From the IMG/VR virus record IMGVR_UViG_3300025898_000004, positions 30,452 to 94,451 of that record: a stretch of 64,000 nt of DNA. The stretch is one strand, 5' to 3'. This DNA comes from a virus. Taxonomy: Duplodnaviria > Heunggongvirae > Uroviricota > Caudoviricetes. Made by a program: the position numbers and the translations under genes. Below, in pieces: positions 18,851 through 63,962 of the stretch (position 1 is the first letter of the stretch; the number at the start of each line of letters is the position of its first letter). The notes under the pieces are model-generated. The model was not told where the DNA came from. It was given only the letters and a program-made list of their open reading frames with translations, and searched no databases.

Positions 18851-20360
18851 AAGGCTTGATCCGCCCGACCCGGAAGTGTTCCAGAAACTCGGATACGTTC
18901 CGACACCGCGACAGCAAGAATTCCACGAGGCAACAGAATTCGCGGTGCTTTACGGCGGGGCAGTCGGTGGGGGAAAAACCAAAGCGCTTGTGGCTGAGGG
19001 GATCAAGCAATGCGTTTTGCATCCCGGTTTGCGCGTGGGCGCTTTCCGACGCTCCTACCCCGAACTCAAGGAATCCATGCTGGCCGAATTGGCGCAAATG
19101 GATTTCGCCAAGGCTGTTGGTGCGTCGTGGAACGGCACGGAATACGACCTGAAGTTTCCCAACGGGTCGATCATCATGTTCCGGTATGCCGAAAACGTGC
19201 AGGACGCCACGAAACGCCAGGGTGGACAGTACCAACTCCTGTTGTTCGATGAGCGCACTCTCACCCCACCCGAAGTGTGCGTGTTCCTGGAATCCCGGCT
19301 CCGGTCCGGTCGCGCCGACGTTCCCGTGATCGGGGTCCGCTCCGGAACGAACCCGGGCGGAGTCGGACACGGCGACGTCAAAATGAAATACATCGACGCC
19401 ACCGACAACGGGAAGAAAATCGTTCTCGACGCCCGTAGGCGCACCGTGCGGTTCATTCCGTCGAAGCTGTCGGACAACCCGCACGTCAACGCCGAGTACG
19501 CCGACGACCTTCGGGGCCTCCCCGAACACCTTCGCCGCGCCTTCCTGGACGGCGACTGGAACATGTTTGCCGGTCAGGTGTTCTCAGAGTGGGGCACCGG
19601 GGAGCGATTCACCGTGCGCCCGATGTCGATCCCGGACACATGGAAGCGCTACACGGGCGTCGACTGGGGCTACACCGCGCCGTGGGCCGTGGTGTGGGGC
19701 GCGGTGGACGAAGACGGCCGTGTGTGGATCTACCGGGAGCTGTACGCCCGCCAGGTTGGCGAAGCCGAACAGGCCCGCCAGATCCTTGCTGCCGAAGCCG
19801 GAGAGCCCATCTGCGAGCGGTTCGCCGACGACGCCATGTGGGCGACGCGGGGCGACGCGAAGCCGATCGCGGACGTGTACGCGGACAACGGTGTGTACCT
19901 GTCCAAGGCCGGCAAGGGCGGGGGGTCCCGCGTCAACGGGTGGCAGCGCATCCACAGCTACCTCACCGACGCCCCAGCGTGCCCGCACCACCGCGCGATG
20001 GGCTGGAAGACCTGCCCGAACCTGCACGTGTTCGACACGTGCGCGAACTTTCTGCGCACTATTCCGGCGCTGCCGCACGCTAAGACCGGTGACCCGGAAG
20101 ATGTCGACACCAACGCGGATGACCACATTGCGGACGCGTTGCGCTACATGCTGGTAAACATGGGTTCCGGACCGGAATTCATGATGGTGGACTCCGCTGT
20201 GAGTGCCGTGGTCGACTCGATCCCGGCCGCTCAACCAATCGGGCCGTTCGCTTACATCCCGCGTGATGATGACAATCCGTACACATACGATGATTACGGC
20301 GGGGAGGTGAACATGCCATGGGGTTTTGGGAGCGGGTTTTCGGCCGGGAATCGATGGTAA
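18816..20360 (+). CDS. terminase large subunit (Walker A 'GGAVGGGKT', nuclease C-terminus)
   Basis: ORF track 514 aa; GTG start with RBS 'gggagg'; TerL motifs. Confidence 0.85.
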   Translation: MLRKSFALSLAERLDPPDPEVFQKLGYVPTPRQQEFHEATEFAVLYGGAVGGGKTKALVAEGIKQCVLHPGLRVGAFRRSYPELKESMLAELAQMDFAKAVGASWNGTEYDLKFPNGSIIMFRYAENVQDATKRQGGQYQLLLFDERTLTPPEVCVFLESRLRSGRADVPVIGVRSGTNPGGVGHGDVKMKYIDATDNGKKIVLDARRRTVRFIPSKLSDNPHVNAEYADDLRGLPEHLRRAFLDGDWNMFAGQVFSEWGTGERFTVRPMSIPDTWKRYTGVDWGYTAPWAVVWGAVDEDGRVWIYRELYARQVGEAEQARQILAAEAGEPICERFADDAMWATRGDAKPIADVYADNGVYLSKAGKGGGSRVNGWQRIHSYLTDAPACPHHRAMGWKTCPNLHVFDTCANFLRTIPALPHAKTGDPEDVDTNADDHIADALRYMLVNMGSGPEFMMVDSAVSAVVDSIPAAQPIGPFAYIPRDDDNPYTYDDYGGEVNMPWGFGSGFSAGNRW

Positions 20361-21916
20361 TCGAGGAAGCGGCCAAGAGTAGCGATAATTTTGATCCCAC
20401 GAAGACGCCAACTCGCGCCGGATACGAATACGGTATTCCGTCCGGTGGTATCAACGAATACACCCAGGGCATCGGATCCGCCACCCAAACTGACCGCCGG
20501 TCCATGCTTCAACAGCTCTATGAGGCGTACCTGGCGTGTCCGTGGAGTTGGGCGTGTGTGAACGCCGTCGCGCGCACCATCACCGCCGGTGGTCTGATGA
20601 CGGACTGGGACACCGACACTGGGGAAGGCGACCAGGAAGCCCCTGACAAGCCGGACAACGTGTTGGCCCTGGAACGGCTGCTCAAGTACTGCAACCCGCA
20701 AGAGGACATGCGTCAGCTGTTGCGGGGCATCATCTGTGACTTGTTGGTGTTCGGTGACGCCTACATTGAAGTCGTGTGGGTCGCCGGGATCCCGGTGTCC
20801 ATGTACAGCCTGGACGCCCCATCCGTGTTTCCCATCGCGAACGAGCATGGTGAAGTCAGCAAGTATATTCAGCTCACCGATTTCGGCCAGCGCGCCGAAT
20901 TCAAGCCAAACGAGATCATTCATATCTCTTTGGACTCGCCGCGTTCCGGCGTGTTCGGCGTGTCTCCGACGCAAGCCGGTTTGTTGCCGATCACGGCGTG
21001 GCTGTTCACGGCCGCCACGCTCAAGGAGACGTTCCGCAAGGGCAATCCGGCGAACATTCATGTGGACATGCCGCAGGGCATGAGCCAGCCGGAAATGAAC
21101 CGGTGGGTCGGGCAATACATGCAACGCAATGTCGGCCCTCGCAACATCGGTTTCCCGCTGACGACCAAGGGTGGCGCGGCGGTCAAGGAGTTGCAGCAGA
21201 ACAAGGTGGAAGAGTATTTGCACACGCTCGACCAGAAGCGTGATGAAATCCTCGCCACCTATGGTGTGCCGCCAGCCGAAGCGGGTGTTATCGAATCGGG
21301 GAACCTGGGTGGCGGTACGGGTGAATCTCAGAGGAAAACGTTCCTTGTCAACACCTGTCAGCCTATCGCGGAACTGGTTCTGGAGAAGCTTAACTTCTAT
21401 ATCGTTCAGCGTGGCTTCGGTATCGAGGGCTGGCACCTGAAGTTCGGCGAAATCGACATGCGTGACTCCAAGACGATCGAGGACATCCGGGACACGCGCC
21501 TCCGGAACGGATCCTGGACGCTGGACCGTTACCGCGCCGACATCGGAGAACCATCCGTGGACGGTGGAGACACCGCCATCCTGGTCGATCGCCAAAACCT
21601 GGTGTTGTGGCGGGACATGGTCGCCTACTCCCGTGCCGGAGTCGCCGCGAAGCTCAAGGGCTCCGCGCTCGAACCGATGGAGCCGGGCGAGGATGACGAG
21701 CCGTTGGCGTTGGAGAAGCCGGAGAAGGAGCCACCGCCGATGCTGCCGCCGATCCCGAACGGGGTCGGAATGCCGGCACCGCCGGGCGCACCACCAGCCG
21801 GCCCGGCCGGGCGCACACCACCTGGTCAACGTCCACCGCGCGAGACGTGGCAACAGCGTTACCGGACGCGGTTGCGGGAAGCGCTGAAAGAACTCCCCGA
21901 TGACTTCGCCGAGTGA
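20318..21916 (+). CDS. portal protein
   Basis: 532-aa ORF directly after TerL; typical size and position. Confidence 0.8.
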   Translation: MGFWERVFGRESMVIEEAAKSSDNFDPTKTPTRAGYEYGIPSGGINEYTQGIGSATQTDRRSMLQQLYEAYLACPWSWACVNAVARTITAGGLMTDWDTDTGEGDQEAPDKPDNVLALERLLKYCNPQEDMRQLLRGIICDLLVFGDAYIEVVWVAGIPVSMYSLDAPSVFPIANEHGEVSKYIQLTDFGQRAEFKPNEIIHISLDSPRSGVFGVSPTQAGLLPITAWLFTAATLKETFRKGNPANIHVDMPQGMSQPEMNRWVGQYMQRNVGPRNIGFPLTTKGGAAVKELQQNKVEEYLHTLDQKRDEILATYGVPPAEAGVIESGNLGGGTGESQRKTFLVNTCQPIAELVLEKLNFYIVQRGFGIEGWHLKFGEIDMRDSKTIEDIRDTRLRNGSWTLDRYRADIGEPSVDGGDTAILVDRQNLVLWRDMVAYSRAGVAAKLKGSALEPMEPGEDDEPLALEKPEKEPPPMLPPIPNGVGMPAPPGAPPAGPAGRTPPGQRPPRETWQQRYRTRLREALKELPDDFAE

Positions 21917-27150: not shown

Positions 27151-28515
27151 GTGCCTTCTGAGCTTCGGGAGGCGTTGACCGCTGCCGGCGCGTCAGCCCT
27201 TATCCCCAAGATCATCGACCCGATGCTGTTGGAGTACCAGCGGCGCTACTCCCCTCTGGTGCGGTCGATTCCGTCCCAGAAGTGGAACAGCGACACCTAT
27301 TACTTCAACCAGCGCACCGTGAACCCGAACGGCGGGTTCGTTGTCGACGGTGGCGCGCGGGTCGTGTCGAACTCGACCTACGTACAGAACTCGTTTGGCA
27401 TCAAGCACCTTCAGGTAGTCGGCGCAATCACCGGCTACGCCCAGGAAGTGACTCGCCAGGTAATCGGGGACTTGCGAGCACGTGAAATCGAGGGGTCCAT
27501 CCGTGGCCTCTACTGGGACATTGAGACCGCTCTCCTGTGGGGAAACGCGGGCTCCACTCAGTTCGGACCGTACCCACAGTTCGATGGCCTGGACTCGCTG
27601 ATCAACACCTACAGCGGCGGAAACCAGAACGCCCAGGACAAGGCCGGCGCGACGCTGACCCTGGCACATTTGGACGAACTGATCGACATGGTGGAAACCA
27701 ACGCCGCGATGTCGGTGTTCGACTCCACATGGCAGCTGGTCATGAGCAACACCGCCGTGTCGAAGATCGCTCAGCTTCTGACCAACCAGCAGCGGTTCAT
27801 GGACCGTGTTGAGGTCGCGGCCGGTCTGATCGTGCCGACCTACCGTGACATTCCGCTGATCAAGTCGTCGTTCATGAGCACTCGTTCCATTCAGATGGGC
27901 ACGGTGACATCGGCAACGGCGACAACAGGCGGAACGCTCGCGGCGGCCACCTACTCCTACAAGGTGTCGGCGGTTGTCGCCCGCCAGGGTGAAATCGCGG
28001 CCTCGGCGGAGGTTTCCCAGGCCACCACGGGATCCACGTCGACGGTGACGCTGTCGTTCTCCACGCCTACGGGCCTGGACGGGCTTCAGCCAATCCTCTA
28101 CAAGGTGTACCGCTCGACTTCGACGGGCACGGAAACCCTTCTGGGGTACGTGGACGCGAACGTTGGTTTCCAGGCCGACGGCATCACGCCACTCCTCACA
28201 ACGTCCATTGTGGACACTGGGGCAACCCTGATCCCACAGAACGGTTCGACCCAGCCGGCCACGTTCCCAGCGACCTACCAGGGAACGAACACGAACAAGT
28301 TCCCGGCGGCCGTAGGAAACGAGAACGTCTACCTGATGTCTCGCGACTACGACAACATCTGCCGGCCGTACGTTCGCGAGCTGACACCGTTGGACGTCTA
28401 CCCGACGACAACCAGCCCAGACAGCCTGCCCTACGCCATTATTTCGGACACCGTGCTCGCCGTGCGTGGTCCGAAGTTCCTGGGTGGTCTGTACCGCGTC
28501 AACACGGCTGTGTGA
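27151..28515 (+). CDS. major capsid protein (HK97 fold)
   Basis: 454 aa; position after protease/scaffold; GTG start after 'gaaagtgagg'. Confidence 0.8.
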   Translation: MPSELREALTAAGASALIPKIIDPMLLEYQRRYSPLVRSIPSQKWNSDTYYFNQRTVNPNGGFVVDGGARVVSNSTYVQNSFGIKHLQVVGAITGYAQEVTRQVIGDLRAREIEGSIRGLYWDIETALLWGNAGSTQFGPYPQFDGLDSLINTYSGGNQNAQDKAGATLTLAHLDELIDMVETNAAMSVFDSTWQLVMSNTAVSKIAQLLTNQQRFMDRVEVAAGLIVPTYRDIPLIKSSFMSTRSIQMGTVTSATATTGGTLAAATYSYKVSAVVARQGEIAASAEVSQATTGSTSTVTLSFSTPTGLDGLQPILYKVYRSTSTGTETLLGYVDANVGFQADGITPLLTTSIVDTGATLIPQNGSTQPATFPATYQGTNTNKFPAAVGNENVYLMSRDYDNICRPYVRELTPLDVYPTTTSPDSLPYAIISDTVLAVRGPKFLGGLYRVNTAV

Positions 28516-33219: not shown

Positions 33220-36200
33220 GTGGCCGAACAGATCAGCGATCTCTATGTGCTGCTCCGCGCCGACACCGGACAATTGATCGGCGGCTTCACCGAAGCGTCC
33301 GTATCCGGCGAAGAGATGGCCGCCAAGGTCGCCGCTGTCACCGCCGACGTTGAAGCCGAAATCGCACGCATGAACGCGTCGCTGATCTCGGTTGGCGCGG
33401 CATCCGACGAAATGGCGTTGCAGACCACCGCCGACTTCGAAGCCATGTCGGTCAAGACGAAGACACTGGCCCTGGACTTCGAGGCCATGGCAGCCAAGGC
33501 CGAAGCGTCCACAGTGGCCATCGGCACGGCGACCGCGAAAGCCGAAGAGGACGCCGCGAAAACGGCCGCCTCGAACGCGGCGACCATGGCGAAGGTCAGC
33601 GCGTTGGTCGGCGCGGCCGGCGCGCTGGTCATCGCCGGCACAGCGAAGATGTCAGGCGATTTCGAGTCCGCCACCCAACGCCTGGTCAGCTCCGCCGGAG
33701 AGTCCGCAGACAAGCTCCAGATGGTCCGTGACGGGCTTCTCCAGATGGCCGGACAGGTTGGAGACAGCTCCCTGGACCTCGCGCACGCCGGCTACTTCAT
33801 CGAGTCCATGGGCTACCACGCTCAGGCTGGCCTGGACGCGCTGAAGGCCGCCGCCGAGGGCGCGAAGCTGGAAAACGCGGACTTGAACACCGTGGCTAAA
33901 GGCCTGACAGCCACGATGAACGACTACGGCCCGAAAGTCGGGGACGCGGCCACGGTCATGTCCAAGCTGGTGACGGCCGTCGGTGACGCCGGCACCACGT
34001 TCGAGGACTTCACGGGCGCACTGCACAACGTGCTTCCGCTGGCGTCAGCCATGAATGTCCCGTTCAACGACATTGCAGGCGCGTTGGCGGAGATGACCGC
34101 GCATGGCATGAGTGCCGACCAGGCGTCTCAGAATCTGTCGAACGCGTTGCGGGAGATGCAAAAGCCGTCATCGGACATGACGAGTTACTTGGCGCAGATT
34201 GGAATCACAGCGTCCGATCTGACGGACAAGCTTGCCACGCGAGGGCTCACAGGCACGCTGAACGACATCAGCCAAGCGATCATGAACAAGATGGGGCCGT
34301 CCGGGAAGGTCCTGATCTCCGCGTTCAATGAGTCCAAGCAAGCCTCGCAAGACTTGCAAGTGATGCTGCAAAACATGCCGAAGTCGTTGCAGGCAACGGC
34401 AACAGCGTTCCTCAATGGACAGATCACGGTCAACGACTGGCGGCAGGCGATTAAGGCGTTGCCGACCGACCAGCAAGGCATGGCAACCCAGTTCGCCGCG
34501 CTGGCGAACAAGGCCGACGGCTTCAACAACATTTTGAAGCAAGGTGGCCCAGCCGCCCAGTCCTACAGCCAGGCCATGCAACGCGCCACGGGCAACGCCA
34601 CGTCGCTGAACGTCGCCCTGATGCTGACGGGCCAGAACACGGCGGCCACGAACAAGGCCGTTAACGACATTGCCGCATCCACAAAAGACGCGGATGGAAG
34701 CGTCAAGGGATGGGCTGACATCCAGTCTACGTTCAACCAGAAGCTGGATGAGGCGAAAGCCGCTCTCGGTGCGGTCGCGATTCAGCTGGGCGCGGTGTTC
34801 CTGCCAATTCTGTCGAAGGTTCTCGGAGCGTTGGCGGACTCGGCACATTGGCTGTCGGAGCACCCGACGTTGATCAAGGCCGTGGCTATTGCGATCGGTA
34901 TTCTCACGGTGGCCGCCTTGGCGTTCGCCGCCGCCATGGTGATTGTGAATATCGCCATGTTGCCAGAGATTGGCGTCATGCTGGCGGTCACGGCGGTGAT
35001 TCTCGCTGTTATCGCGGTGATCACCATCCTGACTATCATCGTGGTTGAGATCGTCAATCACTGGCAGCAGATTTCCGATTTCTTCGTGGATTTGTGGAAC
35101 ACGGTCAAGAATGCGTTCGAAACGGCGATCGACTGGATCGGCGACAAGATCGGCGAATTCATTGACTGGGTGAAGCAGATTCCTCAGAAGGTATGGGACG
35201 GAATCAAGGCGCTGGGAAGCAAACTGGCTGACATCGCCAAAAGCGCCTGGGACGGTTTCACCAAGTTCATTTCTGACGGAATCAACAACACTATCACGCT
35301 GCTCACCCATTTTCCCGAAAAGGCCGGATTTGCGATCGGCTACCTGATCGGAACATTGGCGAAAAAGGGCAAAGAAGCGTGGGACGCGTTCACCGGCGCT
35401 ATCGCCAACGCCTGGAACAGCACCGTGCAATGGTTCAACGACCTACCCAACAACGTGTCCAACCTGATGTCCGACGCGAAAAACTGGCTGACCGGCCCCG
35501 GAAAAAACATGGTCCTGGGCTGGCTGGACGCCATTGGCCAAAAAGCCGAGGACGTGTGGACATGGATGAAATCGGTGCCACACAAGGTCGTCAGCTTCTT
35601 TGACGACGCCGGAGATTGGCTTGTCCAAAAGGGCAAGGACATCCTCCACGGCGCGGAAGACGGCATCAACAACGGATGGGAATCCGTCAAAGCGTGGTGG
35701 AGCGCGACGTTCCCCGACGGGATCATGCGATTTTTCCGCAATGCCGGAAACTGGCTGTACCAAACCGGCCGCGACATCCTGACCGGCTTGGTGAATGGTA
35801 TCAGCTCCGCTATCGGCTGGGTCTGGGACACCGTGACCGGGTTCATCTCCAACCTGATTGCCGGCGTCAAAGCGGGATTCGACTCACACTCGCCATCCCG
35901 CGTGTTCCACGCTATCGGTGAAGACCTGATGCACGGACTCGGAAACGGAATCAGCGCCAAAGCCGGAACCGTGATCGACCTCGCCAAGAAGACGACCAGC
36001 CAAATCGTCGGCGCGGCCAACATCGGTGACATGACCATGACCGGTAACTTCACCGGCCCCAGCGGGCTCGCTACCGGAATCAACCGGGGCGGGGCCGGTG
36101 CGCAACAAGTCACCATCATCGGCCCTATCACCGTGCAAGGAAACATCCGCACCACACAGCAGTTCGTTCGCGAACTCCAACAGGAACTGCTCCGATACGG

Positions 36201-36252
36201 AATCCGCAATATCAACAACGCCACCAGTTACACCGGGTTCGGATCGGGGTGA
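33220..36252 (+). CDS. tape measure protein
   Basis: 1010 aa, Ala-rich coiled-coil N-terminus, central TM segments, canonical position. Confidence 0.9.
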   Translation: MAEQISDLYVLLRADTGQLIGGFTEASVSGEEMAAKVAAVTADVEAEIARMNASLISVGAASDEMALQTTADFEAMSVKTKTLALDFEAMAAKAEASTVAIGTATAKAEEDAAKTAASNAATMAKVSALVGAAGALVIAGTAKMSGDFESATQRLVSSAGESADKLQMVRDGLLQMAGQVGDSSLDLAHAGYFIESMGYHAQAGLDALKAAAEGAKLENADLNTVAKGLTATMNDYGPKVGDAATVMSKLVTAVGDAGTTFEDFTGALHNVLPLASAMNVPFNDIAGALAEMTAHGMSADQASQNLSNALREMQKPSSDMTSYLAQIGITASDLTDKLATRGLTGTLNDISQAIMNKMGPSGKVLISAFNESKQASQDLQVMLQNMPKSLQATATAFLNGQITVNDWRQAIKALPTDQQGMATQFAALANKADGFNNILKQGGPAAQSYSQAMQRATGNATSLNVALMLTGQNTAATNKAVNDIAASTKDADGSVKGWADIQSTFNQKLDEAKAALGAVAIQLGAVFLPILSKVLGALADSAHWLSEHPTLIKAVAIAIGILTVAALAFAAAMVIVNIAMLPEIGVMLAVTAVILAVIAVITILTIIVVEIVNHWQQISDFFVDLWNTVKNAFETAIDWIGDKIGEFIDWVKQIPQKVWDGIKALGSKLADIAKSAWDGFTKFISDGINNTITLLTHFPEKAGFAIGYLIGTLAKKGKEAWDAFTGAIANAWNSTVQWFNDLPNNVSNLMSDAKNWLTGPGKNMVLGWLDAIGQKAEDVWTWMKSVPHKVVSFFDDAGDWLVQKGKDILHGAEDGINNGWESVKAWWSATFPDGIMRFFRNAGNWLYQTGRDILTGLVNGISSAIGWVWDTVTGFISNLIAGVKAGFDSHSPSRVFHAIGEDLMHGLGNGISAKAGTVIDLAKKTTSQIVGAANIGDMTMTGNFTGPSGLATGINRGGAGAQQVTIIGPITVQGNIRTTQQFVRELQQELLRYGIRNINNATSYTGFGSG

Positions 36253-58196: not shown

Positions 58197-58724
58197 CTAA
58201 CACTTCCATGAATGATCGTTTACTACCCTTGAAACAGTTGTACGATCAACTCCGTATAGTACGGCGATGTCTTTAACTTTCATTCCCGACTGACGCTTGG
58301 ATTTTATATCCTGAACTATTTCGTTTGAAAGTTTAGATCGTCCGTTTCCTTCTCCGCGAAGCTTAGAGGAATCTTGCCGCATGAAATGTTGATCCCCATA
58401 AGCGTGGCGATTACGCTCAATAGAATCTCTCTTGTTATCTTTGGAACTACCCCACTCCAGATGGTCAGGATTCATACAAGGAGGGGTGTCACGCTTGTGT
58501 CGCGCGTTAGATCCTAGCCTGCCTGTAACGGCCTTCAGTACAGCCCGATTGCCGCGCCAGTTTTTGCCGTCAATGAACAGCTTCGGATACCCGTCCTTAT
58601 CTTTACCTTTTTGCCAAATCCAACAGCCTGTAGACGGATCAATGGAGCACTCTTGTCGAACATCATCGACAAGAGTGCTCCATTGCCACCTAGGCGGTCG
58701 CGGTCTCCCACGGCCAAACGCCAC
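58197..58724 (-). CDS. HNH homing endonuclease (motifs 'DGYPKL', 'CMNPDHLEWG') with C-terminal HTH; lies in a low-GC islet
   Basis: Motifs read directly; local GC clearly lower (58200-58450). Confidence 0.75.
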   Translation of the reverse strand: MAFGRGRPRPPRWQWSTLVDDVRQECSIDPSTGCWIWQKGKDKDGYPKLFIDGKNWRGNRAVLKAVTGRLGSNARHKRDTPPCMNPDHLEWGSSKDNKRDSIERNRHAYGDQHFMRQDSSKLRGEGNGRSKLSNEIVQDIKSKRQSGMKVKDIAVLYGVDRTTVSRVVNDHSWKC

Positions 58725-60456
58725 GCTGCCCCATTTCGATCAACGGAACCAACTTGAAAGTAGAATCTCCCAATCCGCCCAGCTCGTGACGGTTCGTGCC
58801 GGCCGTCATCGCACCCGCGTACCCAGCCAGGTTGAACGAGTACACCGGCACCTCCGCCGGAACGTAGCGGTTCACCGCGTCCGTCCCGCCGTTCCAGCCG
58901 TTCCCCATCAGTTGCATGTCGGAGAACACGAACACCCGCGTGTGCTCCCCGCGCCGGAACGTCTTGGCCAGAGCCTGCGCCAAATCCGTCCCGTGCCCCA
59001 CCGAACCGGCCCGGTTCGTGAACCGCGCAACCTGTTCGATCAGCGCCGCACCGGTCTTGATCTCGTGCGTGAATGTGCCCGTAGCCCACCCGGCCAGGTC
59101 CACGCGACCCCGGTTCCGGAACGCCAACGCCACACCGAACAGAGCCGCCGCGTCCACACACGACACCTGGGACTTCCCAGACATCGGCGCGGACATCGAC
59201 GCCGACGTGTCGACCAGGATCAGCGTGCGCCCGTCCAGCTCCGGAATGTTCTGCGTCGACAGGGTCAGCGCCGTGTTCAGCGCCGAACCCCACCGCAACG
59301 ACCCGGCCGCCATGCGGTACGCGGACAGGAACCGGAACGGGAACTGCTTGCACCGGGCAACCTGGTCCGGGTCCGCCAGCTTTGCCGCGATCACGGCCGC
59401 AACCTTGTCTGACACGCCGGCCTTGTCGAAGTTCGCCAAGTTCCGCAGAAGCGCCATGTAGCCCATGGACGGGATCACGGCCTCCCACGCCTGCGCCGTC
59501 ATGCCCTGGCCGTCCGACAGCCACCCGGACAGCCACTCCCACGTCGCGCCGGCCGCGTCCAAGCGGGGCGTGAGCACGCCAGCCGACAAGGCGTTACGCA
59601 GCCAGGTGCGCCGCTCTGGCACCGGAACAGCCTCCAGCGACGCGCGGTAGCGCACCATCGGGAGGGGAGCGCCCTGTCCGTCGTTCGGCACCGCGTCCGC
59701 CCGGCCGTGCCGGCGGTCCAACAGCCACCGGTAGAGCGCGTTACGGTTGCCCGTGTTCGCGTCGTCCGGGTGGACGATGTCAACGACGTCCCCGAACCGG
59801 ACGCCGTACGCGTTGGTGTCGTACTTCAGGGCGGAGAACTCCGTGTACAGGCGCGGTAGGGTGTCCCCGATGGCGCGCTTCATGCACATGGGGAGCGCCC
59901 GGCCGAACCGCGACCGCCAGTAGGCGATCATCTCGCCCGGTTCGTCGGCGCGCAGCAGCGCCGCCCGCAACAGGTCCCGGTTGCCGCCCTCGATGCCGGC
60001 CTTCAGGCGCGCGTGCACGGCCTCGCAGGCGATGACGATCGGCGCGGTACGCATGTTGCCCTTGCGCCGCAACCAGTCCACGAACGGCAACAGCCACTCC
60101 AAACCGGTGTCCGGATTCGCGGCGTGCTCGCGGCTGGCCACGGTGTGCGCCGCCGTCGCCATGAACGCCGTCGCCACGGCCTTGGACAGGGTCCGGCTTG
60201 CGCTGTCGGTCGCGATGGCGGCCGCCAGGTCCCGCACACGCTGTACGGTCGCGTCGCCAGTCTCGTAGAACTTGTTCTCCGCGATGAACCCGGCCGTGGC
60301 TGTCAGGAACAGCTGGCCCTGGTCCGTGCGGGCAAACGACGGCGCACCCTCGAACGTGCGCGCTGACGCGCGCCGGTCCACGACAATCGGCGACAATCCG
60401 CCTGCGCCGACACCGACACGACCGAACGTGTCCGGCAACTTGTTGAACTTGGACAT
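58690..60456 (-). CDS. rsr: Ro60 orthologue (Rsr): TROVE domain plus vWA domain with MIDAS motif 'DTSASM'
   Basis: Domain pattern read from ORF 58690..60594; ATG 60456 (MSKFNKLPDTFG) has RBS 'aaccaaggagtgtggagt'. Confidence 0.75.
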   Translation of the reverse strand: MSKFNKLPDTFGRVGVGAGGLSPIVVDRRASARTFEGAPSFARTDQGQLFLTATAGFIAENKFYETGDATVQRVRDLAAAIATDSASRTLSKAVATAFMATAAHTVASREHAANPDTGLEWLLPFVDWLRRKGNMRTAPIVIACEAVHARLKAGIEGGNRDLLRAALLRADEPGEMIAYWRSRFGRALPMCMKRAIGDTLPRLYTEFSALKYDTNAYGVRFGDVVDIVHPDDANTGNRNALYRWLLDRRHGRADAVPNDGQGAPLPMVRYRASLEAVPVPERRTWLRNALSAGVLTPRLDAAGATWEWLSGWLSDGQGMTAQAWEAVIPSMGYMALLRNLANFDKAGVSDKVAAVIAAKLADPDQVARCKQFPFRFLSAYRMAAGSLRWGSALNTALTLSTQNIPELDGRTLILVDTSASMSAPMSGKSQVSCVDAAALFGVALAFRNRGRVDLAGWATGTFTHEIKTGAALIEQVARFTNRAGSVGHGTDLAQALAKTFRRGEHTRVFVFSDMQLMGNGWNGGTDAVNRYVPAEVPVYSFNLAGYAGAMTAGTNRHELGGLGDSTFKLVPLIEMGQRGVWPWETATA

Positions 60457-60480
60457 ACTCCACACTCCTTGGTTTGAGCA

Positions 60481-60525
60481 ACAAAAAAGGAGATGCCCAC
60501 ATGCCGGCTGATACTCGGCATGTGA
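60481..60525 (-). terminator. hairpin cacatgccg/cggcatgtg followed on the minus strand by CTCCTTTTTTGTTG, immediately upstream of the rsr RBS
   Basis: Seen directly. Confidence 0.55.
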
Positions 60526-60700
60526 ACACCTCCCGTGTGTGAACGTTTCCCCCGCAGGGGACCGACGCGCCGGGTGCGGACATCTTCCGGACAACGTAGC
60601 TCACTCGGTTACGCGCGCCGCGCCCAGGAATCGAACCTGATCTAGTGGGTTTGGAATCCACTGTCCGCACACAGCGGCCGCGACTTAAGTTGGCTCCCAC
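60481..60700 (-). ncRNA. candidate Y RNA (YrlA-like): tRNA-like domain (60616..60684; canonical T-arm tcagg-TTCGATT-cctgg, Trp-like anticodon loop TTCCAAA, imperfect acceptor and D arm) followed by about 90 nt and a terminator
   Basis: Element does not fold as a canonical tRNA; adjacent to Ro60 gene; bacterial Y RNAs with tRNA-like modules beside rsr are established (recalled). Confidence 0.45.
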
Positions 60701-60830
60701 TTCGTTGGTGTCCTTACGCACGAACCGGCAGGAAGCCTACATCCATCCGCGTGCGTAAAGTGACGGCTTCGGGGACTTGATCCCGTCACGTGCTACTAGA
60801 GGCGATGCCCCGGAGTCCCAGCACCTTCCG

Positions 60831-60901
60831 AAGCGGACACGGGATTCGAACCCGTATGGACAGCTTTGCAGGCTGCTACCTAGCCATTCGGTCAGTCCGC
60901 C
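60831..60901 (-). tRNA. tRNA-Cys (GCA)
   Basis: Manual cloverleaf fold: acceptor ggcggac/gtccgct, anticodon arm gcagc-ctGCAaa-gctgt, T-arm acggg-TTCGAAT-cccgt; 71 nt, no CCA. Confidence 0.75.
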
Positions 60902-61019
60902 ATGACGGCCGTGCCCTATGCTGCGGGACACGGACGCCAACTCCCTCACCGTGGATGGTGAGAATGGAGAGCACAACTTTTCAGGAACCTGCACCGGTGT
61001 CCGTAGGTGCTGTGCTCAG

Positions 61020-61094
61020 TAGTCCTACCCGGATTCGAACCGGGAACCTCCACCACCTCAAGGTGACGCCTCTGCCATGTTGGGCTATAGGACC
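61020..61094 (-). tRNA. tRNA-Leu (GAG), atypical class-I-like form with 5-nt variable loop, A73
   Basis: Manual fold: ggtccta|ta|gccc-aacatggcag-aggc|g|tcacc-ttGAGgt-ggtgg|aggtt|cccgg-TTCGAAT-ccggg|taggact|a. Confidence 0.65.
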
Positions 61095-61104
61095 AGGGGA
61101 CCGC

Positions 61105-61344
61105 TCACGCGGCCGTGTCGACTGTGGCGCGGGTACGCCACCGCCGGTAGTTCAGTACTCCCACCGCGACCATACCGAGGTTCATCACAAATCCCCAGTA
61201 TCCGGTTGCGATGCCGAACGCCACCATGCCCAGTTGCACGGCGACCAGCACAACCCACCCGCTGATCTTCCCGCGCCCCACGAGCCACGCGGACAAGATG
61301 TTGAACGGGCCGAACAAGAACGTGGACGCTAACGCTACGTTCAT
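61105..61344 (-). CDS. small hydrophobic protein (79 aa, 2 TM) embedded in the tRNA array
   Basis: ORF track; strong RBS 'caccaaggagatggt' before ATG. Confidence 0.5.
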   Translation of the reverse strand: MNVALASTFLFGPFNILSAWLVGRGKISGWVVLVAVQLGMVAFGIATGYWGFVMNLGMVAVGVLNYRRWRTRATVDTAA

Positions 61345-61364
61345 ACCATCTCCTTGGTGAGGAG

Positions 61365-61440
61365 TAGTCCTACTGGGATTCGAACCCAGAACCTCCCGGA
61401 CCTGAACCGGACGCCTCTGCCAAAGTTGGGCTATAGGACC
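61365..61440 (-). tRNA. tRNA-Leu (CAG), atypical class-I-like form with 5-nt variable loop, A73
   Basis: Manual fold: same architecture as 61020..61094; anticodon arm tccgg-ttCAGgt-ccggg. Confidence 0.65.
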
Positions 61441-61540
61441 GTGACGTGAGCGCTACCACAACGCTCACGTTTCATACACAACACCGTTCCGTGCTGTCAT
61501 CGCGAACCGTCAGAGGCACCCTGATTAACCCCGACAGTCG

Positions 61541-61611
61541 TACCGCACGAGGGATTCGAACCCCCACGGGAGTGGTTTACAGCCACGCCGGCACAACCAA
61601 CGCTGTACGGT
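61541..61611 (-). tRNA. tRNA-Tyr (GTA) candidate with short D loop and 5-nt variable loop
   Basis: T-arm ggggg-TTCGAAT-ccctc, acceptor accgtac/gtgcggt, anticodon arm cgtgg-ctGTAaa-ccact; D arm fold poor. Confidence 0.5.
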
Positions 61612-61746
61612 ATGAAAGCGGCCTCATCCCTAGCCGCCACGGTGGACCCACAACAGCAGATTCACGAATGAACCCACTTTCCTCGCTTCCCACTTCCGGT
61701 CTGCCGCAACACCTCGGAAAGGCTCGGCCTTTTACAACGACAAACG

Positions 61747-61820
61747 TAGCCCCTACGGGATTCGAACCCGCGATATCCTGGATGAAAGCCAGGCGGCTTA
61801 GGCCACTTGCCTAAGGGGCT
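61747..61820 (-). tRNA. tRNA-Glu (TTC)
   Basis: Manual fold: agcccct|ta|ggca-agtggccta-agcc|g|cctgg-ctTTCat-ccagg|atatc|gcggg-TTCGAAT-cccgt|aggggct|a. Confidence 0.75.
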
Positions 61821-61832
61821 TTAATTACTGCG

Positions 61833-61906
61833 TAGCCGCGCCGGGATTCGAACCCGGAACCTTCCCCTTTTGAGGGGGACGCCTCTGCCTATTGGGCTAA
61901 GCGGCC
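61833..61906 (-). tRNA. tRNA-Leu (CAA), atypical class-I-like form with 5-nt variable loop, A73
   Basis: Manual fold: ggccgct|ta|gccc-aataggcag-aggc|g|tcccc-ctCAAaa-gggga|aggtt|ccggg-TTCGAAT-cccgg|cgcggct|a (7:66 mismatch). Confidence 0.65.
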
Positions 61907-62046
61907 CAGATGGTGACTTTCTGTCGTAGGGGTTTCACAGCACTCGGACGGTTACGACAGTAAACCGCTACCCTTGCGTTGCCTGCGTCCCTTTGCGTCT
62001 AGCGTCCAGGCGATCAAGCTGGACGGTCACCCACTAGCCGATAACG

Positions 62047-62119
62047 TAGCGCATACGGGGCTCGAACCCGTGACCTCCCGGCTGAGAACCGGGTGTTCCG
62101 CCAATTGAACTAATGCGCC
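62047..62119 (-). tRNA. tRNA-Glu (CTC)
   Basis: Manual fold: ggcgcat|ta|gttc-aattggcg-gaac|a|cccgg-ttCTCag-ccggg|aggtc|acggg-TTCGAGC-cccgt|atgcgct|a. Confidence 0.7.
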
Positions 62120-62120
62120 A

Positions 62121-62197
62121 TGGCACCCTTAGAGAGATTCGAACTCCCGACAACCCGGATCCGTAATCCGGTGCTCTATCCACTGAGCTATAAGGGC
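62121..62197 (-). tRNA. tRNA-Arg (ACG) with encoded CCA
   Basis: Manual fold: gccctta|ta|gctc-agtggata-gagc|a|ccgga-ttACGga-tccgg|gttgtc|gggag-TTCGAAT-ctctc|taagggt|g|cca. Confidence 0.7.
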
Positions 62198-62198
62198 T

Positions 62199-62275
62199 TG
62201 GGTTGACCGACGGGACTCGAACCCGCATAAACCACACTCACAATGTGGGGCCTTGTCCATTAGGCTACAGTCAAC
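62199..62275 (-). tRNA. tRNA-His (GTG) with encoded G-1, C73 and CCA
   Basis: Manual fold: g|ttgactg|ta|gcct-aatggaca-aggc|c|ccaca-ttGTGag-tgtgg|tttat|gcggg-TTCGAGT-cccgt|cggtcaa|c|cca; 1-nt spacers to both neighbouring tRNAs. Confidence 0.75.
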
Positions 62276-62276
62276 G

Positions 62277-62350
62277 TCCCACCCCCGGGAATCGAACCCG
62301 GAACCTTCGGTTTCGGAAACCGATGCTCTGTCCTGTTGAGCTAAAGCGGG
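62277..62350 (-). tRNA. tRNA-Arg (CCG)
   Basis: Manual fold: cccgctt|ta|gctc-aacaggaca-gagc|a|tcggt-ttCCGaa-accga|aggtt|ccggg-TTCGATT-cccgg|gggtggg|a; three G-U pairs in acceptor. Confidence 0.6.
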
Positions 62351-62528
62351 TTACCGCTCATTGCGGTAATGTTCCTCGAACACAGGCTGCGATACCCGGG
62401 CAAGCTTCAAATACAACTCCCTGTGACCCGGATTCGCATTATCCCAATTCAAATCCACGTGATATCCGTGGATAATGCTAAACATTGCTCTCGCGGCTTC
62501 GATGATCAAAGGAGAATCTTCGGTCACG
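62351..62528. other. low-GC spacer inside the tRNA array carrying two perfect hairpins (ttaccgc/gcggtaa 62351-62369; atccacg/cgtggat 62451-62471); no tRNA fold
   Basis: Seen directly; minus-strand 44-codon ORF has low GC3 and no SD, so probably noncoding. Confidence 0.4.
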
Positions 62529-62600
62529 TCCCCCTCCGGGGAGTCGAACCCCGACCCTACCGTTTAGGAAACGGTCGCTCCTCCGTTGCGCTTGAGGGGG
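62529..62600 (-). tRNA. tRNA-Arg (CCT)
   Basis: Manual fold: ccccctc|aa|gcgc-aacggag-gagc|g|accgt-ttCCTaa-acggt|agggt|cgggg-TTCGACT-ccccg|gaggggg|a. Confidence 0.7.
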
Positions 62601-62682
62601 ATTAGGTGCCCCGTCCGGTGCGGCAAACACCGAAACGGGGCGATGTTCACGAATCCCTAGCCAGGGCTCTTTGATGTGAACG

Positions 62683-62767
62683 CGGAAGCTAAGGGATTCG
62701 AACCCTTGGGACACGAGGCCCACGTCATTAGCAGTGACGCCCAATCGGCCAGCTCTGGCAAGCTTCC
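62683..62767 (-). tRNA. tRNA-Ser (GCT), class II with 15-nt variable arm
   Basis: Manual fold: ggaagct|tg|cca-gagctggccgat-tgg|g|cgtca-ctGCTaa-tgacg|tgggcctcgtgtccc|aaggg-TTCGAAT-ccctt|agcttcc|g. Confidence 0.75.
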
Positions 62768-63056
62768 TCATCGCGTGTGGAGCCCGGGCGACCGGTTACT
62801 TTCCCGCCAGGCGCAGCGATAGCCACCGCCGCACCATTCCGCAAGTGTTGTATCCCCCTCTTTTGGGGACCCGGAACTCATTCACACGAAGCAAGATCGG
62901 GGCAGGCCCGTACGCGACCCGTTTCAGCTATCCCGTGGCCGTCTAGAACAGCCTTGGGAATCAACGCCTATCCGTGCTTATCATCCAGCCACATCGAAAC
63001 GGTCCCTTGGGTATCGCGGGACACTGGGCCTTGACGATTTATGACGGTCCCCAACG
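62768..63056 (-). other. 289-nt tRNA-free gap inside the tRNA array with internal repeats (gggaccgt x2) and stem-loops; candidate ncRNA or degenerate tRNA
   Basis: No TTCGA T-loop anywhere in the interval; no convincing ORF (ORF-track hits overlap tRNAs). Confidence 0.3.
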
Positions 63057-63137
63057 CAGAGGGTAAAGGAATCGAACCCTTAGGTGTCACCCTAGCCCGG
63101 ACTTCGAAACCGGTTTGCCGCCACGGCGCTACCCTCC
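63057..63137 (-). tRNA. tRNA-Ser (CGA), class II with 15-nt variable arm
   Basis: Manual fold: ggagggt|ag|...|ccggt-ttCGAag-tccgg|gctagggtgacacct|aaggg-TTCGATT-ccttt|accctct|g; D arm short. Confidence 0.65.
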
Positions 63138-63207
63138 GAGACGCGCCCCCTCTAGGTCGCCACCGAAGAGAGGGGACGCTCACCCGCCGACACGGCAACG
63201 GGTGTAG

Positions 63208-63278
63208 AGCGGATGACGGGAATCGAACCCGCGTCTTTAGTTTGGAAGACTATGACTCTGCCATTGAGCTACATCCGC
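63208..63278 (-). tRNA. tRNA-Gly (TCC), U73
   Basis: Manual fold: gcggatg|ta|gctc-aatggca-gagt|c|atagt-ctTCCaa-actaa|agac|gcggg-TTCGATT-cccgt|catccgc|t. Confidence 0.75.
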
Positions 63279-63284
63279 ATTGCG

Positions 63285-63527
63285 TTACTCTGGATATTCA
63301 ACAGCTCCCGGAATGAGACTGCCCAACAGGCGAAACTGATCTGGGTAGGCCCGCGCCGCCGCCTGCGACATGATCATTCGTTGGAGCACGTGAATGTGAT
63401 GACAGGACTCGGTCAGGTCATCCATTCGCGTCGGACCGTCCGCCACGATCCGGCACATGTTCATGTGCACCTGACCAAGCATCACGGCCGTTTCTTTTTC
63501 GAGTTGCGTCAACAGTTCCGAGTCCAC
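63285..63527 (-). CDS. hypothetical protein (80 aa, GTG start) embedded in the tRNA array
   Basis: ORF track; moderately high GC3; weak RBS. Confidence 0.3.
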   Translation of the reverse strand: MDSELLTQLEKETAVMLGQVHMNMCRIVADGPTRMDDLTESCHHIHVLQRMIMSQAAARAYPDQFRLLGSLIPGAVEYPE

Positions 63528-63573
63528 GCCACCCCGAATGCTAGTAGCAATATTGTCTTGCGGCGAAACAACG

Positions 63574-63646
63574 CTGACCTAACTGGACTCGAACCAGCAT
63601 CCCCCAACTTAACAGGATGGTGCTCTGCCAATTGAGCTATAGGTCA
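63574..63646 (-). tRNA. tRNA-Asn (GTT), G73
   Basis: Manual fold: tgaccta|ta|gctc-aattggca-gagc|a|ccatc-ctGTTaa-gttgg|gggat|gctgg-TTCGAGT-ccagt|taggtca|g (one T-T mismatch in anticodon stem). Confidence 0.65.
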
Positions 63647-63886
63647 TTAGGCCCGTCCCCCAGGTCTTTCACCCGGAATGCCACAGTCGCGAACCATGAG
63701 CATTGCTTTAATATGCTGGGACGGATGGAAGCCCGATAGGTGGATCTCCGCCACAGCCTCACCAGTGGTGAGCGGTATCGTGTTTCATCACCATTGTGGG
63801 TACCGCACTTGGGGTTGAACTCCGGCACTCGGGCCAACATGCCGGATGGTATAAACCCGGAACGCGAGGAACCGGGCGGGAAAACG

Positions 63887-63962
63887 TGGCAGCGGTGGGA
63901 TTTGAACCCACGATCTCCGACTTATGAGGACGGCGAGGACGACCGAACTCCTCTACGCTGCT
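63887..63962 (-). tRNA. tRNA with CAT anticodon (Met, or Ile2 if lysidinylated); 1:72 A-C mismatch
   Basis: Manual fold: agcagcg|ta|gagg-agttcggtcgt-cctc|g|ccgtc-ctCATaa-gtcgg|agatc|gtggg-TTCAAAT-cccac|cgctgcc|a. Confidence 0.6.

What the first reader, a model, noticed from the sequence alone, without database searches (positions are those of the whole stretch)
61020..61906. Three leucine tRNAs (GAG, CAG, CAA) that lack the long variable arm
The tRNAs at 61020..61094, 61365..61440 and 61833..61906 share an identical architecture. It has a 7-bp acceptor, a D arm gccc-(9-11 nt)-aggc, a 5-bp anticodon stem, a 5-nt variable loop (aggtt), a canonical T-arm and discriminator A73. Their anticodons are all leucine. 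Known bacterial tRNA-Leu are class II with a long variable arm used as a structural and identity element. A set of class-I-shaped Leu isoacceptors covering CUC, CUG and UUG is unusual. It may indicate recoding, altered synthetase recognition, or a non-decoding role such as decoys or primers.
Basis: seen in the sequence. Interest (0 to 1): 0.65.

Follow-up and report, generated by a model that had tools for sequence, protein, structure and literature searches.

The report
Short-armed leucine tRNAs in a phage
A soil phage carries three real leucine tRNAs that lack the usual long extra arm; this looks odd against the textbook, but the same kind of tRNA is already documented in Streptomyces and turns out to be common in phages and actinobacteria, so it is an ordinary member of an under-appreciated family.

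Summary
Three 74-76 nt tRNAs on the minus strand (61094..61020 GAG, 61440..61365 CAG, 61906..61833 CAA) have a class-I cloverleaf with a 5-nt variable loop (AGGTT), and no long-arm fold is possible.

They are the only Leu tRNAs in a 30-tRNA array of an uncultured soil siphovirus-like phage. Three diverged relatives keep the same trio, with compensatory stem changes.

The kind is not new. Type-I tRNALeu(CAA) is chromosomal in Streptomyces coelicolor and is leucylated by its single LeuRS (Fan et al. 2019). An anticodon-free pattern found at least 119 viral and at least 120 bacterial stretches. Of the 247 tRNAs that carry it, 245 have Leu anticodons. Bxz1-like mycobacteriophages carry the same CAG/GAG/CAA trio.

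The window tRNAs keep the bacterial Leu identity set (A73, U8-A14, A15-U48, a Leu-type D loop) and the expected G37/A37. Together they read 98.7% of the phage's Leu codons.

Best reading: ordinary leucine-accepting elongator tRNAs of the type-I lineage. Recoding, decoy and primer roles are not supported. I found no paper on the phage-borne members, and the reason for the shape is open. Verdict: new member of a known kind, modest interest.

The parts
61020..61094 (-). tRNA-Leu(GAG), type I. 75 nt to A73, variable loop AGGTT, G37. Reads CUC and CUU.
   Evidence: ARAGORN; Rfam RF00005 at 51.8 bits; parse; orthologues in L252, L253 and L254 with compensatory changes at pairs 2:71 and 3:70.
61365..61440 (-). 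tRNA-Leu(CAG), type I. 76 nt to A73, variable loop AGGTT, G37. Reads CUG, the commonest Leu codon. Its acceptor and D arms are identical to those of the GAG copy.
   Evidence: ARAGORN; Rfam at 50.8 bits; parse; orthologues whose T stem changes CTGGG/CCCAG to GAGAG/CTCTC.
61833..61906 (-). tRNA-Leu(CAA), type I. 74 nt to A73, variable loop AGGTT, A36-A37-A38. Reads UUG.
   Evidence: ARAGORN; Rfam at 53.3 bits with alignment shown; parse; orthologues.
60830..63962 (-). Context: the window's share (16 genes) of a 30-tRNA array. The array continues past the window end. It contains no class-II tRNA-Leu, while its two Ser tRNAs (62682-62767 and 63056-63137) keep long variable arms.
   Evidence: ARAGORN on the window and on source contigs L246 and L247.

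Best explanation
The three genes are functional leucine-accepting elongator tRNAs of the 'type I tRNALeu' lineage. This is a distinct, old branch of bacterial and phage tRNALeu in which the long variable arm is replaced by a 5-nt loop and the core is re-tuned: A9 instead of G9, C13.A22 instead of G13.A22, and the 12:23 pair flipped.

Inferred mechanism:
1. The genes are transcribed as part of the phage's 30-tRNA array and processed.
2. The host enzyme adds CCA, since none is encoded.
3. The host LeuRS charges them with leucine. Bacterial LeuRS reads A73, U8-A14, the A15-U48 Levitt pair and the elbow, not the anticodon, and in Streptomyces it accepts a 5-nt variable loop.
4. They then decode CUC/CUU, CUG and UUG, which together are 98.7% of the phage's Leu codons. 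This supplements or replaces the host Leu tRNAs during infection.

Shown here: gene structure, conservation, family membership, identity elements and codon coverage. Inferred: expression, charging, and the benefit to the phage.
For: - Structure: a full-length tRNA model match and a 5-nt variable loop.
- Selection: helicase homologues 88%, 68% and 67% identical to the window's are encoded on the related contigs L252, L253 and L254. These contigs hold the same syntenic CAA/CAG/GAG trio at 74-77 nt, with compensatory double changes in acceptor and T stems.
- Family coherence: an anticodon-free pattern (D-arm 3' half, class-I spacing, T arm) retrieved 129 viral tRNAs, 128 with Leu anticodons, and 118 bacterial tRNAs, 117 with Leu anticodons. 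All six Leu anticodons are represented.
- Covariation: across 308 unique members, 20 stem pairs are 91-100% canonical with 3-6 pair types each. C13.A22 is a 95%-conserved mismatch.
- Leu identity: across the 393 short Leu tRNAs, A73 is 98-100%, A14-A15 about 98%, U48 about 99%, and the variable loop is 5 nt in about 93%.
- D loop: the signature AA..GG(C/U)AGA is shared with class-II tRNALeu in the same loci (17/41 strict, 30/41 relaxed). Only 10 of the roughly 1,270 unique tRNAs of other isotypes carry it.
- Decoding signatures in the window: G37 in the two CUN readers and A36A37A38 in the UUG reader. From established knowledge these are the contexts for m1G37 and i6A37.
- Codon coverage: CTG 331, TTG 161, CTC 112, CTT 60, against CTA 8 and TTA 1.
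- Codon meaning: in the TROVE protein these codons align with Leu (59/96) or Ile/Val/Met (20/96) in 39-41%-identical homologues.
- No alternative decoder: the full array has no class-II tRNALeu.
- Biochemical precedent: S. coelicolor type-I tRNALeu(CAA) is leucylated by ScoLeuRS. It is the sole tRNALeu(CAA) isoacceptor, UUG is frequent (6706 codons), and attempts to knock the gene out failed. The 5-nt loop length and U8-A14 matter for charging (PMC6614811).
Against: - No expression or aminoacylation data exist for these or any phage-borne type-I tRNALeu that I could find.
- The host is unknown. An actinobacterial host is only inferred, from 62% GC, soil origin, and Ro-like and terminase similarity to actinophages.
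- Fan et al. report that E. coli LeuRS and one other Streptomyces LeuRS could not charge the type-I tRNA, so charging depends on the host enzyme.
- Family members occur in phages whose hosts may lack type-I tRNALeu. Examples are Pectobacterium phage POP15 and Bxz1-like phages of M. smegmatis. The tRNA-Leu(CAA) that phage Gaia carries to stand in for the M. smegmatis host gene it disrupts is class II, at 83 nt (PMC10865867).
- The viral and bacterial sets were selected with a pattern taken from the window tRNAs, so conservation figures for the D arm and T loop are inflated by construction.
Confidence: 0.8

Rival explanations
1. The tRNAs are leucine decoders, but the armless shape is itself the adaptation. 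It would let the phage's Leu tRNAs escape a host tRNA-targeting defence or toxin, or a phage-directed destruction of host tRNAs, that recognises class-II tRNALeu. This is an added layer on the best explanation, not an alternative to decoding.
For: - All Leu tRNAs of this phage lineage are type I, while the Ser tRNAs keep the arm.
- The same all-type-I trio is found in Bxz1-like mycobacteriophages.
- The M. smegmatis tRNA-Leu(CAA) function can be supplied by an 83-nt class-II gene (PMC10865867), which suggests host and phage shapes differ there.
- There is precedent that phage tRNAs carry changes evading host tRNA nucleases, shown for cluster C1 mycobacteriophages (PMC10264068).
- A TROVE/Ro60-like protein and an RNase T-like exonuclease gene lie immediately beside the tRNA array in the window. 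RNA-repair genes lie next to such arrays in other phages (an RtcB-like RNA ligase in L001 and an RNA ligase in L002).
Against: - The same architecture is a lone chromosomal gene in many bacteria: 69 of the bacterial loci have it as the only tRNA in 8 kb. In Streptomyces it is an ordinary tRNA that could not be deleted. The shape therefore does not need a phage-specific rationale.
- None of the papers I read describes a nuclease that reads the tRNALeu variable arm.
- The paper on evasion discusses anticodon loops only; 'variable' does not occur in its main text.
Confidence: 0.15
2. Recoding or deliberate mistranslation: the tRNAs carry Leu anticodons but are charged with another amino acid because they lack the class-II body.
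For: Only the general precedent that anticodon and identity can be uncoupled. LeuRS does not read the anticodon, and Ser-identity 'allo-tRNAs' with Leu anticodons exist (from my own knowledge of the literature, not checked here).
Against: - They retain A73, U8-A14, A15-U48 and the Leu-type D loop.
- They lack G3:U70 (Ala), lack G73 plus a long arm (Ser), and lack the anticodons that the other A73 synthetases need (sequence).
- They would recode 98.7% of Leu codons, leaving the proteome almost without Leu.
- Standard translation gives strong family matches (for example major head protein at 3.6e-43).
- These codons align with Leu, Ile, Val or Met in distant homologues.
Confidence: 0.02
3. A non-decoding role: decoys for a host factor, ligands of the neighbouring Ro60-like protein, primers, or decaying pseudogenes.
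For: A TROVE/Ro60-like gene lies directly next to the array. Ro proteins bind tRNA-like Y RNAs (from my own knowledge).
Against: - The cloverleaves are perfect and maintained by compensatory changes.
- The anticodon-loop signatures suit decoding.
- The anticodon set matches codon usage.
- They sit inside a 30-tRNA array covering 19 amino acids.
- There is no Y RNA match at these genes.
- No reverse transcriptase was seen among the proteins scanned.
Confidence: 0.03

Closest known systems
Type I tRNALeu(CAA) of Streptomyces coelicolor (Fan, Huang, Ji and Wang 2019, NAR 47:6369; PMC6614811)
   Same: Both have a Leu anticodon on a class-I cloverleaf with a 5-nt variable loop, U8-A14 and A73. The D arm TAGCCCAA..GGCAGAGGCG and T loop TTCGAAT of the window tRNAs recur in the chromosomal Streptomyces copies retrieved here (L148, L199).
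   Different: The window genes are phage-borne. There are three isoacceptors (GAG, CAG, CAA), not one, and they are the phage's whole Leu set. They have G1.U72 and variable loop AGGTT, against G1-C72 and ACAGT/ACAGC. Overall identity to the Streptomyces copies is only 57-65%. Charging has not been tested.
Annotated short tRNA-Leu genes of cultured phages: Bxz1-like mycobacteriophages (for example Gizmo), Streptomyces phages Alone3 and Percastrophe, Rhodococcus phage Francesca, Microbacterium phage Magritte, M. abscessus prophage prophi86-1, Pectobacterium phage POP15
   Same: These are 74-77 nt tRNA-Leu genes inside phage tRNA arrays. Gizmo has the same CAG/GAG/CAA trio. The six parsed copies in L001-L004, L256 and L257 also share A73, A14-A15 and U48.
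   Different: There is no detectable DNA similarity outside the tRNAs, and the window phage has no close cultured relative. Francesca and Magritte mix type-I with class-II Leu tRNAs, whereas the window lineage has only type I. The Gizmo copies have more diverged D arms.
Canonical bacterial class-II tRNALeu
   Same: A73, A14, the A15-U48 Levitt pair, a purine-rich D loop (AA..GG(C/U)AGA), a mismatch at 13:22, and G37 or A37 according to codon family.
   Different: The window tRNAs have no variable stem-loop. They have A9 instead of G9, C13 instead of G13, and D stem GCC/GGC instead of GCG/CGC.
Animal mitochondrial tRNALeu (class-I shaped)
   Same: A short variable loop with A73 (as summarised in PMC6614811).
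   Different: The mitochondrial tRNAs are a different lineage with a different recognition mode. ScoLeuRS does not charge human mt-tRNALeu(UUR). The window tRNAs have a fully canonical bacterial elbow and T loop.

Membership tests
Type I (short-variable-loop) bacterial/phage tRNALeu | Leucine anticodon on a tRNA that passes a general tRNA model | tested here: met
   ARAGORN gives GAG, CAG and CAA. RF00005 scores 50.8-53.3 bits against a gathering score of 29.
Type I (short-variable-loop) bacterial/phage tRNALeu | Variable region of 4-5 nt with no stem. A 5-nt length is reported as important for charging. | tested here: met
   AGGTT in all three. The 5-nt requirement comes from PMC6614811.
Type I (short-variable-loop) bacterial/phage tRNALeu | U8-A14 tertiary pair (identity element in S. 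coelicolor) and a Leu-type D arm | tested here: met
   T8 and A14 are invariant in the 12-sequence alignment. D arm GCCC-AA..GGCAG-AGGC is as in the Streptomyces chromosomal copies L148 and L199.
Type I (short-variable-loop) bacterial/phage tRNALeu | The body predicts a Leu anticodon, i.e. a coherent family and not a chance short tRNA | tested here: met
   The anticodon-free pattern gave 128/129 viral and 117/118 bacterial tRNAs with Leu anticodons.
Type I (short-variable-loop) bacterial/phage tRNALeu | Leucylation by the cognate (host) LeuRS | not testable with these tools
   Shown only for S. coelicolor tRNALeu(CAA) with ScoLeuRS, SazLeuRS and human mitochondrial LeuRS; E. coli LeuRS was negative. 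The host of this phage is unknown.
Canonical bacterial class-II tRNALeu | Long variable arm (10 nt or more, with stem) | tested here: not met
   The genes are 74-76 nt in total with a 5-nt loop. Class-II copies in the comparison loci are 82-90 nt.
Canonical bacterial class-II tRNALeu | E. coli-type Leu identity set: A73, A14, A15-U48, G18G19 in a Leu-type D loop | tested here: met
   All are present in the three genes and in 98-100% of family members. The identity set is as listed in PMC6614811.
Mischarging tRNAs with Leu anticodons (Ala identity, or Ser identity of the allo-tRNA type) | G3:U70 (Ala); or G73 plus a long variable arm (Ser) | tested here: not met
   The 3:70 pair is U-A, U-A and C-G; the discriminator is A73; there is no long arm.
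Bacterial Y RNA (YrlA, RF02553) | Match to the Rfam model; tRNA-like module joined to a Ro-binding stem | tested here: not met
   The only hit is a sub-threshold 21.7-bit match (gathering score 69) over other tRNAs at 62166-62234. There is none at the Leu genes.

The most novel reading that the evidence does not exclude
Phage-borne type-I tRNALeu may be an adaptive, host-orthogonal design. By shedding the variable arm, whole Leu isoacceptor sets (as here and in Bxz1-like phages) would stay chargeable by certain host LeuRS enzymes while becoming invisible to a host factor that acts on class-II tRNALeu, such as a nuclease, toxin or modification-dependent control. It could equally protect them from the phage's own attack on host tRNAs. 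LeuRS compatibility, through the leucine-specific domain, would then be a hidden host-range determinant. The short tRNA-Tyr in the same array would be part of the same strategy.
Probability: 0.12. Interest if true: 0.6.

Novelty: new member of a known kind. Interest (0 to 1): 0.3.

Why it matters
As a single finding it matters little: these are tRNA-Leu genes doing what tRNA-Leu genes do.

The wider point is that the textbook rule 'bacterial tRNALeu is class II' has a large, little-discussed exception.
- The family covers all six Leu anticodons.
- It occurs as lone chromosomal genes in many Actinomycetota.
- It also occurs in other phyla and in hundreds of phage genomes.
- Only one biochemical study of it turned up in my searches, and that study found that charging depends on the LeuRS.

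This bears on three practical matters: host prediction for phages with tRNA arrays, annotation pipelines that use isotype models, and the design of orthogonal LeuRS/tRNA pairs.

Tried and rejected
- Close relatives among cultured phages. Megablast of the tRNA region found nothing. The major head protein matched only Leptospira and Bacillus phages at about 28%. The host therefore stays inferred.
- An exact-sequence scan of IMG/VR for the window's own tRNA found nothing. The source contigs were found instead through the small ORF 61105-61344.
- A recoding test against solved structures: the UvrD-like helicase matched only E. coli Rep, too weakly to use. I replaced it with the TROVE alignment.
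- In vivo evidence from tRNA-dependent lysogeny: phage Gaia supplies its own tRNA-Leu(CAA) after destroying the host gene (PMC10865867), but that gene is 83 nt and class II. It says nothing about type I.
- Literature on phage type-I tRNALeu: full-text searches and three in-paper look-ups found only Fan et al. 2019 for bacteria. Pope et al. 2014 on cluster M tRNAs is not held.
- Host inference from the nearest tRNA neighbours: the best matches are only 77-85% identical and come from uncultured contigs.
- MFE folding of single sequences does not reproduce the cloverleaf D arm. I relied on the covariance model and on covariation instead.
- I did not build my own covariance model, because the pattern scan and pair statistics already answered the question.

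Full report
**Observation**

ARAGORN finds 16 tRNA genes on the minus strand between 60830 and 63962. Three have leucine anticodons: GAG at 61019-61094, CAG at 61364-61440 and CAA at 61832-61906.

Read on the minus strand and parsed, each has this layout:
- a 7-bp acceptor stem beginning G1.U72
- U8 A9
- a D arm GCCC / 9-11 nt / AGGC, in which only three pairs form and C13.A22 is a mismatch
- G26
- a 5-bp anticodon stem and a 7-nt loop
- the 5-nt variable loop AGGTT
- a T arm with TTCGAAT
- discriminator A73, with no encoded CCA

At 74-76 nt a long variable arm cannot be accommodated.

**Genomic setting**

The window is part of a tailed phage. It encodes:
- terminase, 18816-20360
- portal, 20318-21916
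- major head protein, 27151-28515
- tape measure protein, 33220-36252
- helicases and a primase-polymerase-like protein

G+C is about 62%.

The phage has no close cultured relative. Its Ro-like protein is most similar to those of Streptomyces, Arthrobacter and Gordonia phages. Its terminase resembles those of Arthrobacter phages, although a Pelagibacter phage is the single best hit. An actinobacterial host is therefore likely but not shown.

The 79-aa ORF that lies between two of the Leu tRNAs (61105-61344) occurs identically on five soil-metagenome contigs. Those contigs show the complete array: 30 tRNAs for 19 amino acids. Its only Leu tRNAs are these three, and there is no class-II tRNALeu. 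The two Ser tRNAs keep their long arms, at 82 and 86 nt.

**Are the genes under selection?**

Homologues of the neighbouring helicase led to three related contigs:
- L252, helicase 88% identical
- L253, 68% identical
- L254, 67% identical

All three carry a syntenic array with the same CAA, CAG and GAG genes, each 74-77 nt.

The 12-sequence alignment shows classic compensatory change:
- In the GAG gene, acceptor positions 2-3 change GT to CA while 70-71 change AC to TG.
- In the CAG gene, the T stem changes CTGGG/CCCAG to GAGAG/CTCTC.
- In L254 the CAA gene has a different T stem and variable loop (ACAGT).

Meanwhile T8, A9, GCCC, A14, A15, the AGGC 3' strand of the D stem, the T loop and A73 stay fixed. 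These are maintained tRNAs, not decaying copies.

**Is the shape singular?**

It is not. A weak-similarity search already hit short annotated tRNA-Leu genes in several cultured phages:
- M. abscessus prophage prophi86-1
- Rhodococcus phage Francesca
- Microbacterium phage Magritte
- Pectobacterium phage POP15

I then scanned IMG/VR with a pattern that says nothing about the anticodon: GGCAGAGGCG, 25-26 nt, GGTTCGAAT. That is the 3' half of the D arm, class-I spacing, and the T arm. Of the 129 tRNAs carrying the pattern, 128 have Leu anticodons, namely CAA 51, UAG 39, UAA 14, GAG 12, CAG 11 and AAG 1.

There, 117 of 118 tRNAs have Leu anticodons.

In 69 of the bacterial loci the gene is the only tRNA within 8 kb, which marks it as an ordinary chromosomal gene. 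The genera include Cellulomonas, Cellulosimicrobium, Sanguibacter, Nocardioides, Streptomyces, Plantactinospora, Thermobifida and Nonomuraea. In other loci the gene sits in arrays of 10-34 tRNAs. Members of the Planctomycetota, Acidobacteriota, Verrucomicrobiota and Chloroflexota also appear.

In GenBank phages, a consensus type-I query gives 319 records with a match covering at least 80% of its length. In the sampled rows, every annotated feature under a match of at least 85% coverage is tRNA-Leu. These include Streptomyces phages and the Bxz1-like cluster C1 mycobacteriophages. Phage Gizmo has three adjacent short Leu genes, CAG (77 nt), GAG (75 nt) and CAA (74 nt), the same trio as the window.

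**Family anatomy**

Over 308 unique short Leu tRNAs, 20 stem pairs are canonical in 91-100% of sequences, with three to six pair types each. The C13.A22 mismatch is present in 95%.

Across the 393 short Leu tRNAs the conserved positions are:
- A73: 98-100%
- A14-A15: about 98%
- U48: about 99%
- variable loop of 5 nt: about 93%

One caveat applies. The sets were selected with a pattern that fixes part of the D arm and T loop, so conservation there is partly by construction. The acceptor, anticodon stem, variable loop, discriminator and anticodon were free to vary.

Class-II Leu tRNAs from the same loci were not selected by the pattern. They read U8 G9 GCGG AA..GG(C/U)AGA CGC. The type-I genes share the Leu-type D loop but differ at positions 9, 12:23 and 13.

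The D-loop signature separates the isotypes as follows:

| tRNA group | Strict signature | Relaxed signature |
|---|---|---|
| Class-II Leu | 17/41 | 30/41 |
| Other isotypes (about 1,270 unique) | 10 | not totalled |

The body is therefore leucine-like, with a core re-tuned for the missing arm. It is not some other tRNA that acquired a Leu anticodon.

**What is known**

Fan et al. (2019; PMC6614811) describe this kind of tRNA in Streptomyces coelicolor. Their main findings are:
- The CAA isoacceptor is type I, with a 5-nt variable loop, alongside four class-II isoacceptors.
- The single LeuRS charges both, the type I at roughly half the velocity.
- U8-A14 and the 5-nt loop length matter for charging, while A73 is dispensable for that enzyme.
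- The type-I gene could not be deleted.
- E. coli LeuRS does not charge it, and neither does one other Streptomyces LeuRS.
- The leucine-specific domain of ScoLeuRS confers the ability to charge type I.

They call bacterial tRNALeu 'almost all' type II and do not mention phages.

The Streptomyces chromosomal copies my scan retrieved (L148, L199) share the D arm and T loop with the window genes, at 57-65% overall identity. I found no paper that discusses phage-borne type-I tRNALeu. Two reviews on tRNA identity and non-canonical tRNAs do not mention it, and neither does the eLife study of cluster C1 phage tRNAs.

**Function**

The three anticodons read CUC/CUU, CUG and UUG. In 16 confidently assigned phage genes these four codons account for 664 of 673 Leu codons, with CTA at 8 and TTA at 1.

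The two CUN readers have G37. The UUG reader has A36-A37-A38. From established knowledge these are the normal contexts for m1G37 and i6A37.

In the TROVE protein, CTG, TTG and CTC codons align with Leu in 59 of 96 cases and with Ile, Val or Met in 20. The comparison used 39-41%-identical homologues on contigs whose fetched stretches hold no Leu tRNA.

Recoding would leave the proteome nearly free of leucine, and it conflicts with the retained Leu identity set. There is no G3:U70, and no G73 with a long arm. Nothing suggests a decoy or primer role.

The best-supported account is therefore plain: these are leucine-accepting elongator tRNAs of the type-I lineage, charged by a compatible host LeuRS, that supply the phage's leucine decoding. 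Expression, charging and the benefit to the phage are inferred, not shown.

**What remains open**

It is unknown why whole Leu sets in some phages are type I. This includes phages of hosts that may use class-II tRNALeu. The tRNA-Leu(CAA) that phage Gaia carries to replace the M. smegmatis gene it disrupts is 83 nt. E. coli LeuRS rejected the Streptomyces type-I tRNA, yet an enterobacterial phage (POP15) carries a textbook family member.

An evasion role for the shape is possible but untested. I give it about 0.12-0.15.

**Verdict**

This is a new member of a known, under-documented kind. Interest is 0.3.

Noticed in passing
window 60617-60684 (-): A conserved tRNA-like element lies between tRNA-Cys and the Ro60/TROVE gene: GUCGCGGCCGCUGUGUGCGGACAGUGGAUUCCAAACCCACUAGAUCAGGUUCGAUUCCUGGGCGCGGC.
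- Default ARAGORN misses it.
- Rfam gives only tRNA-Sec at 21 bits (E = 0.08).
- Relaxed ARAGORN draws an 8-bp acceptor stem, a short D arm and a loop containing CCA.
- It is nearly invariant in L252 and L253, and shows compensatory changes in L254.
- The 30-tRNA array has no tRNA-Trp.
It could be a non-canonical tRNA-Trp(CCA), or the tRNA-like module of a Y RNA serving the adjacent Ro protein.
   Followed up: partly
window 61540-61612 (-): tRNA-Tyr(GUA) is only 72-73 nt with a 5-nt variable loop, although bacterial tRNATyr is normally class II. It has A8 and an odd D arm, and it scores poorly with Rfam. It is conserved with compensatory acceptor and T-stem changes in L252 and L253, and absent from L254.
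   Followed up: partly
window 58690-60594 (-); the gene call begins at 60456: A TROVE/Ro60-like RNA-binding protein with a VWA domain sits directly next to the tRNA array. The same adjacency is seen in relatives L252-L254 and in Streptomyces phage Alone3.
   Followed up: partly
L246 6056-6128 and 6305-6375 (same contig, beyond the window end): tRNA-His with anticodon AUG and tRNA-Asn with anticodon AUU (A34) sit beside the normal GUG and GUU copies. Both are conserved in L253, and the His(AUG) copy also in L254.
   Followed up: no
window 61105-61344 (-): A 79-aa hydrophobic ORF with a good ribosome-binding site is embedded between two Leu tRNAs. The identical protein occurs on five soil-metagenome contigs. 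It has no PHROG match.
   Followed up: partly
L257 2820-2893 (Streptomyces phage Alone3): An annotated tRNA-Ser(GCU) is only 74 nt, which makes it a short-armed Ser tRNA. That would be more surprising than a short Leu tRNA, because SerRS uses the long arm.
   Followed up: no
L220 (bacterial locus) and one of the IMG/VR loci: Two tRNAs have the type-I Leu body but non-Leu anticodons, Gly(GCC) and Phe(AAA). They are possible anticodon-shifted derivatives.
   Followed up: no
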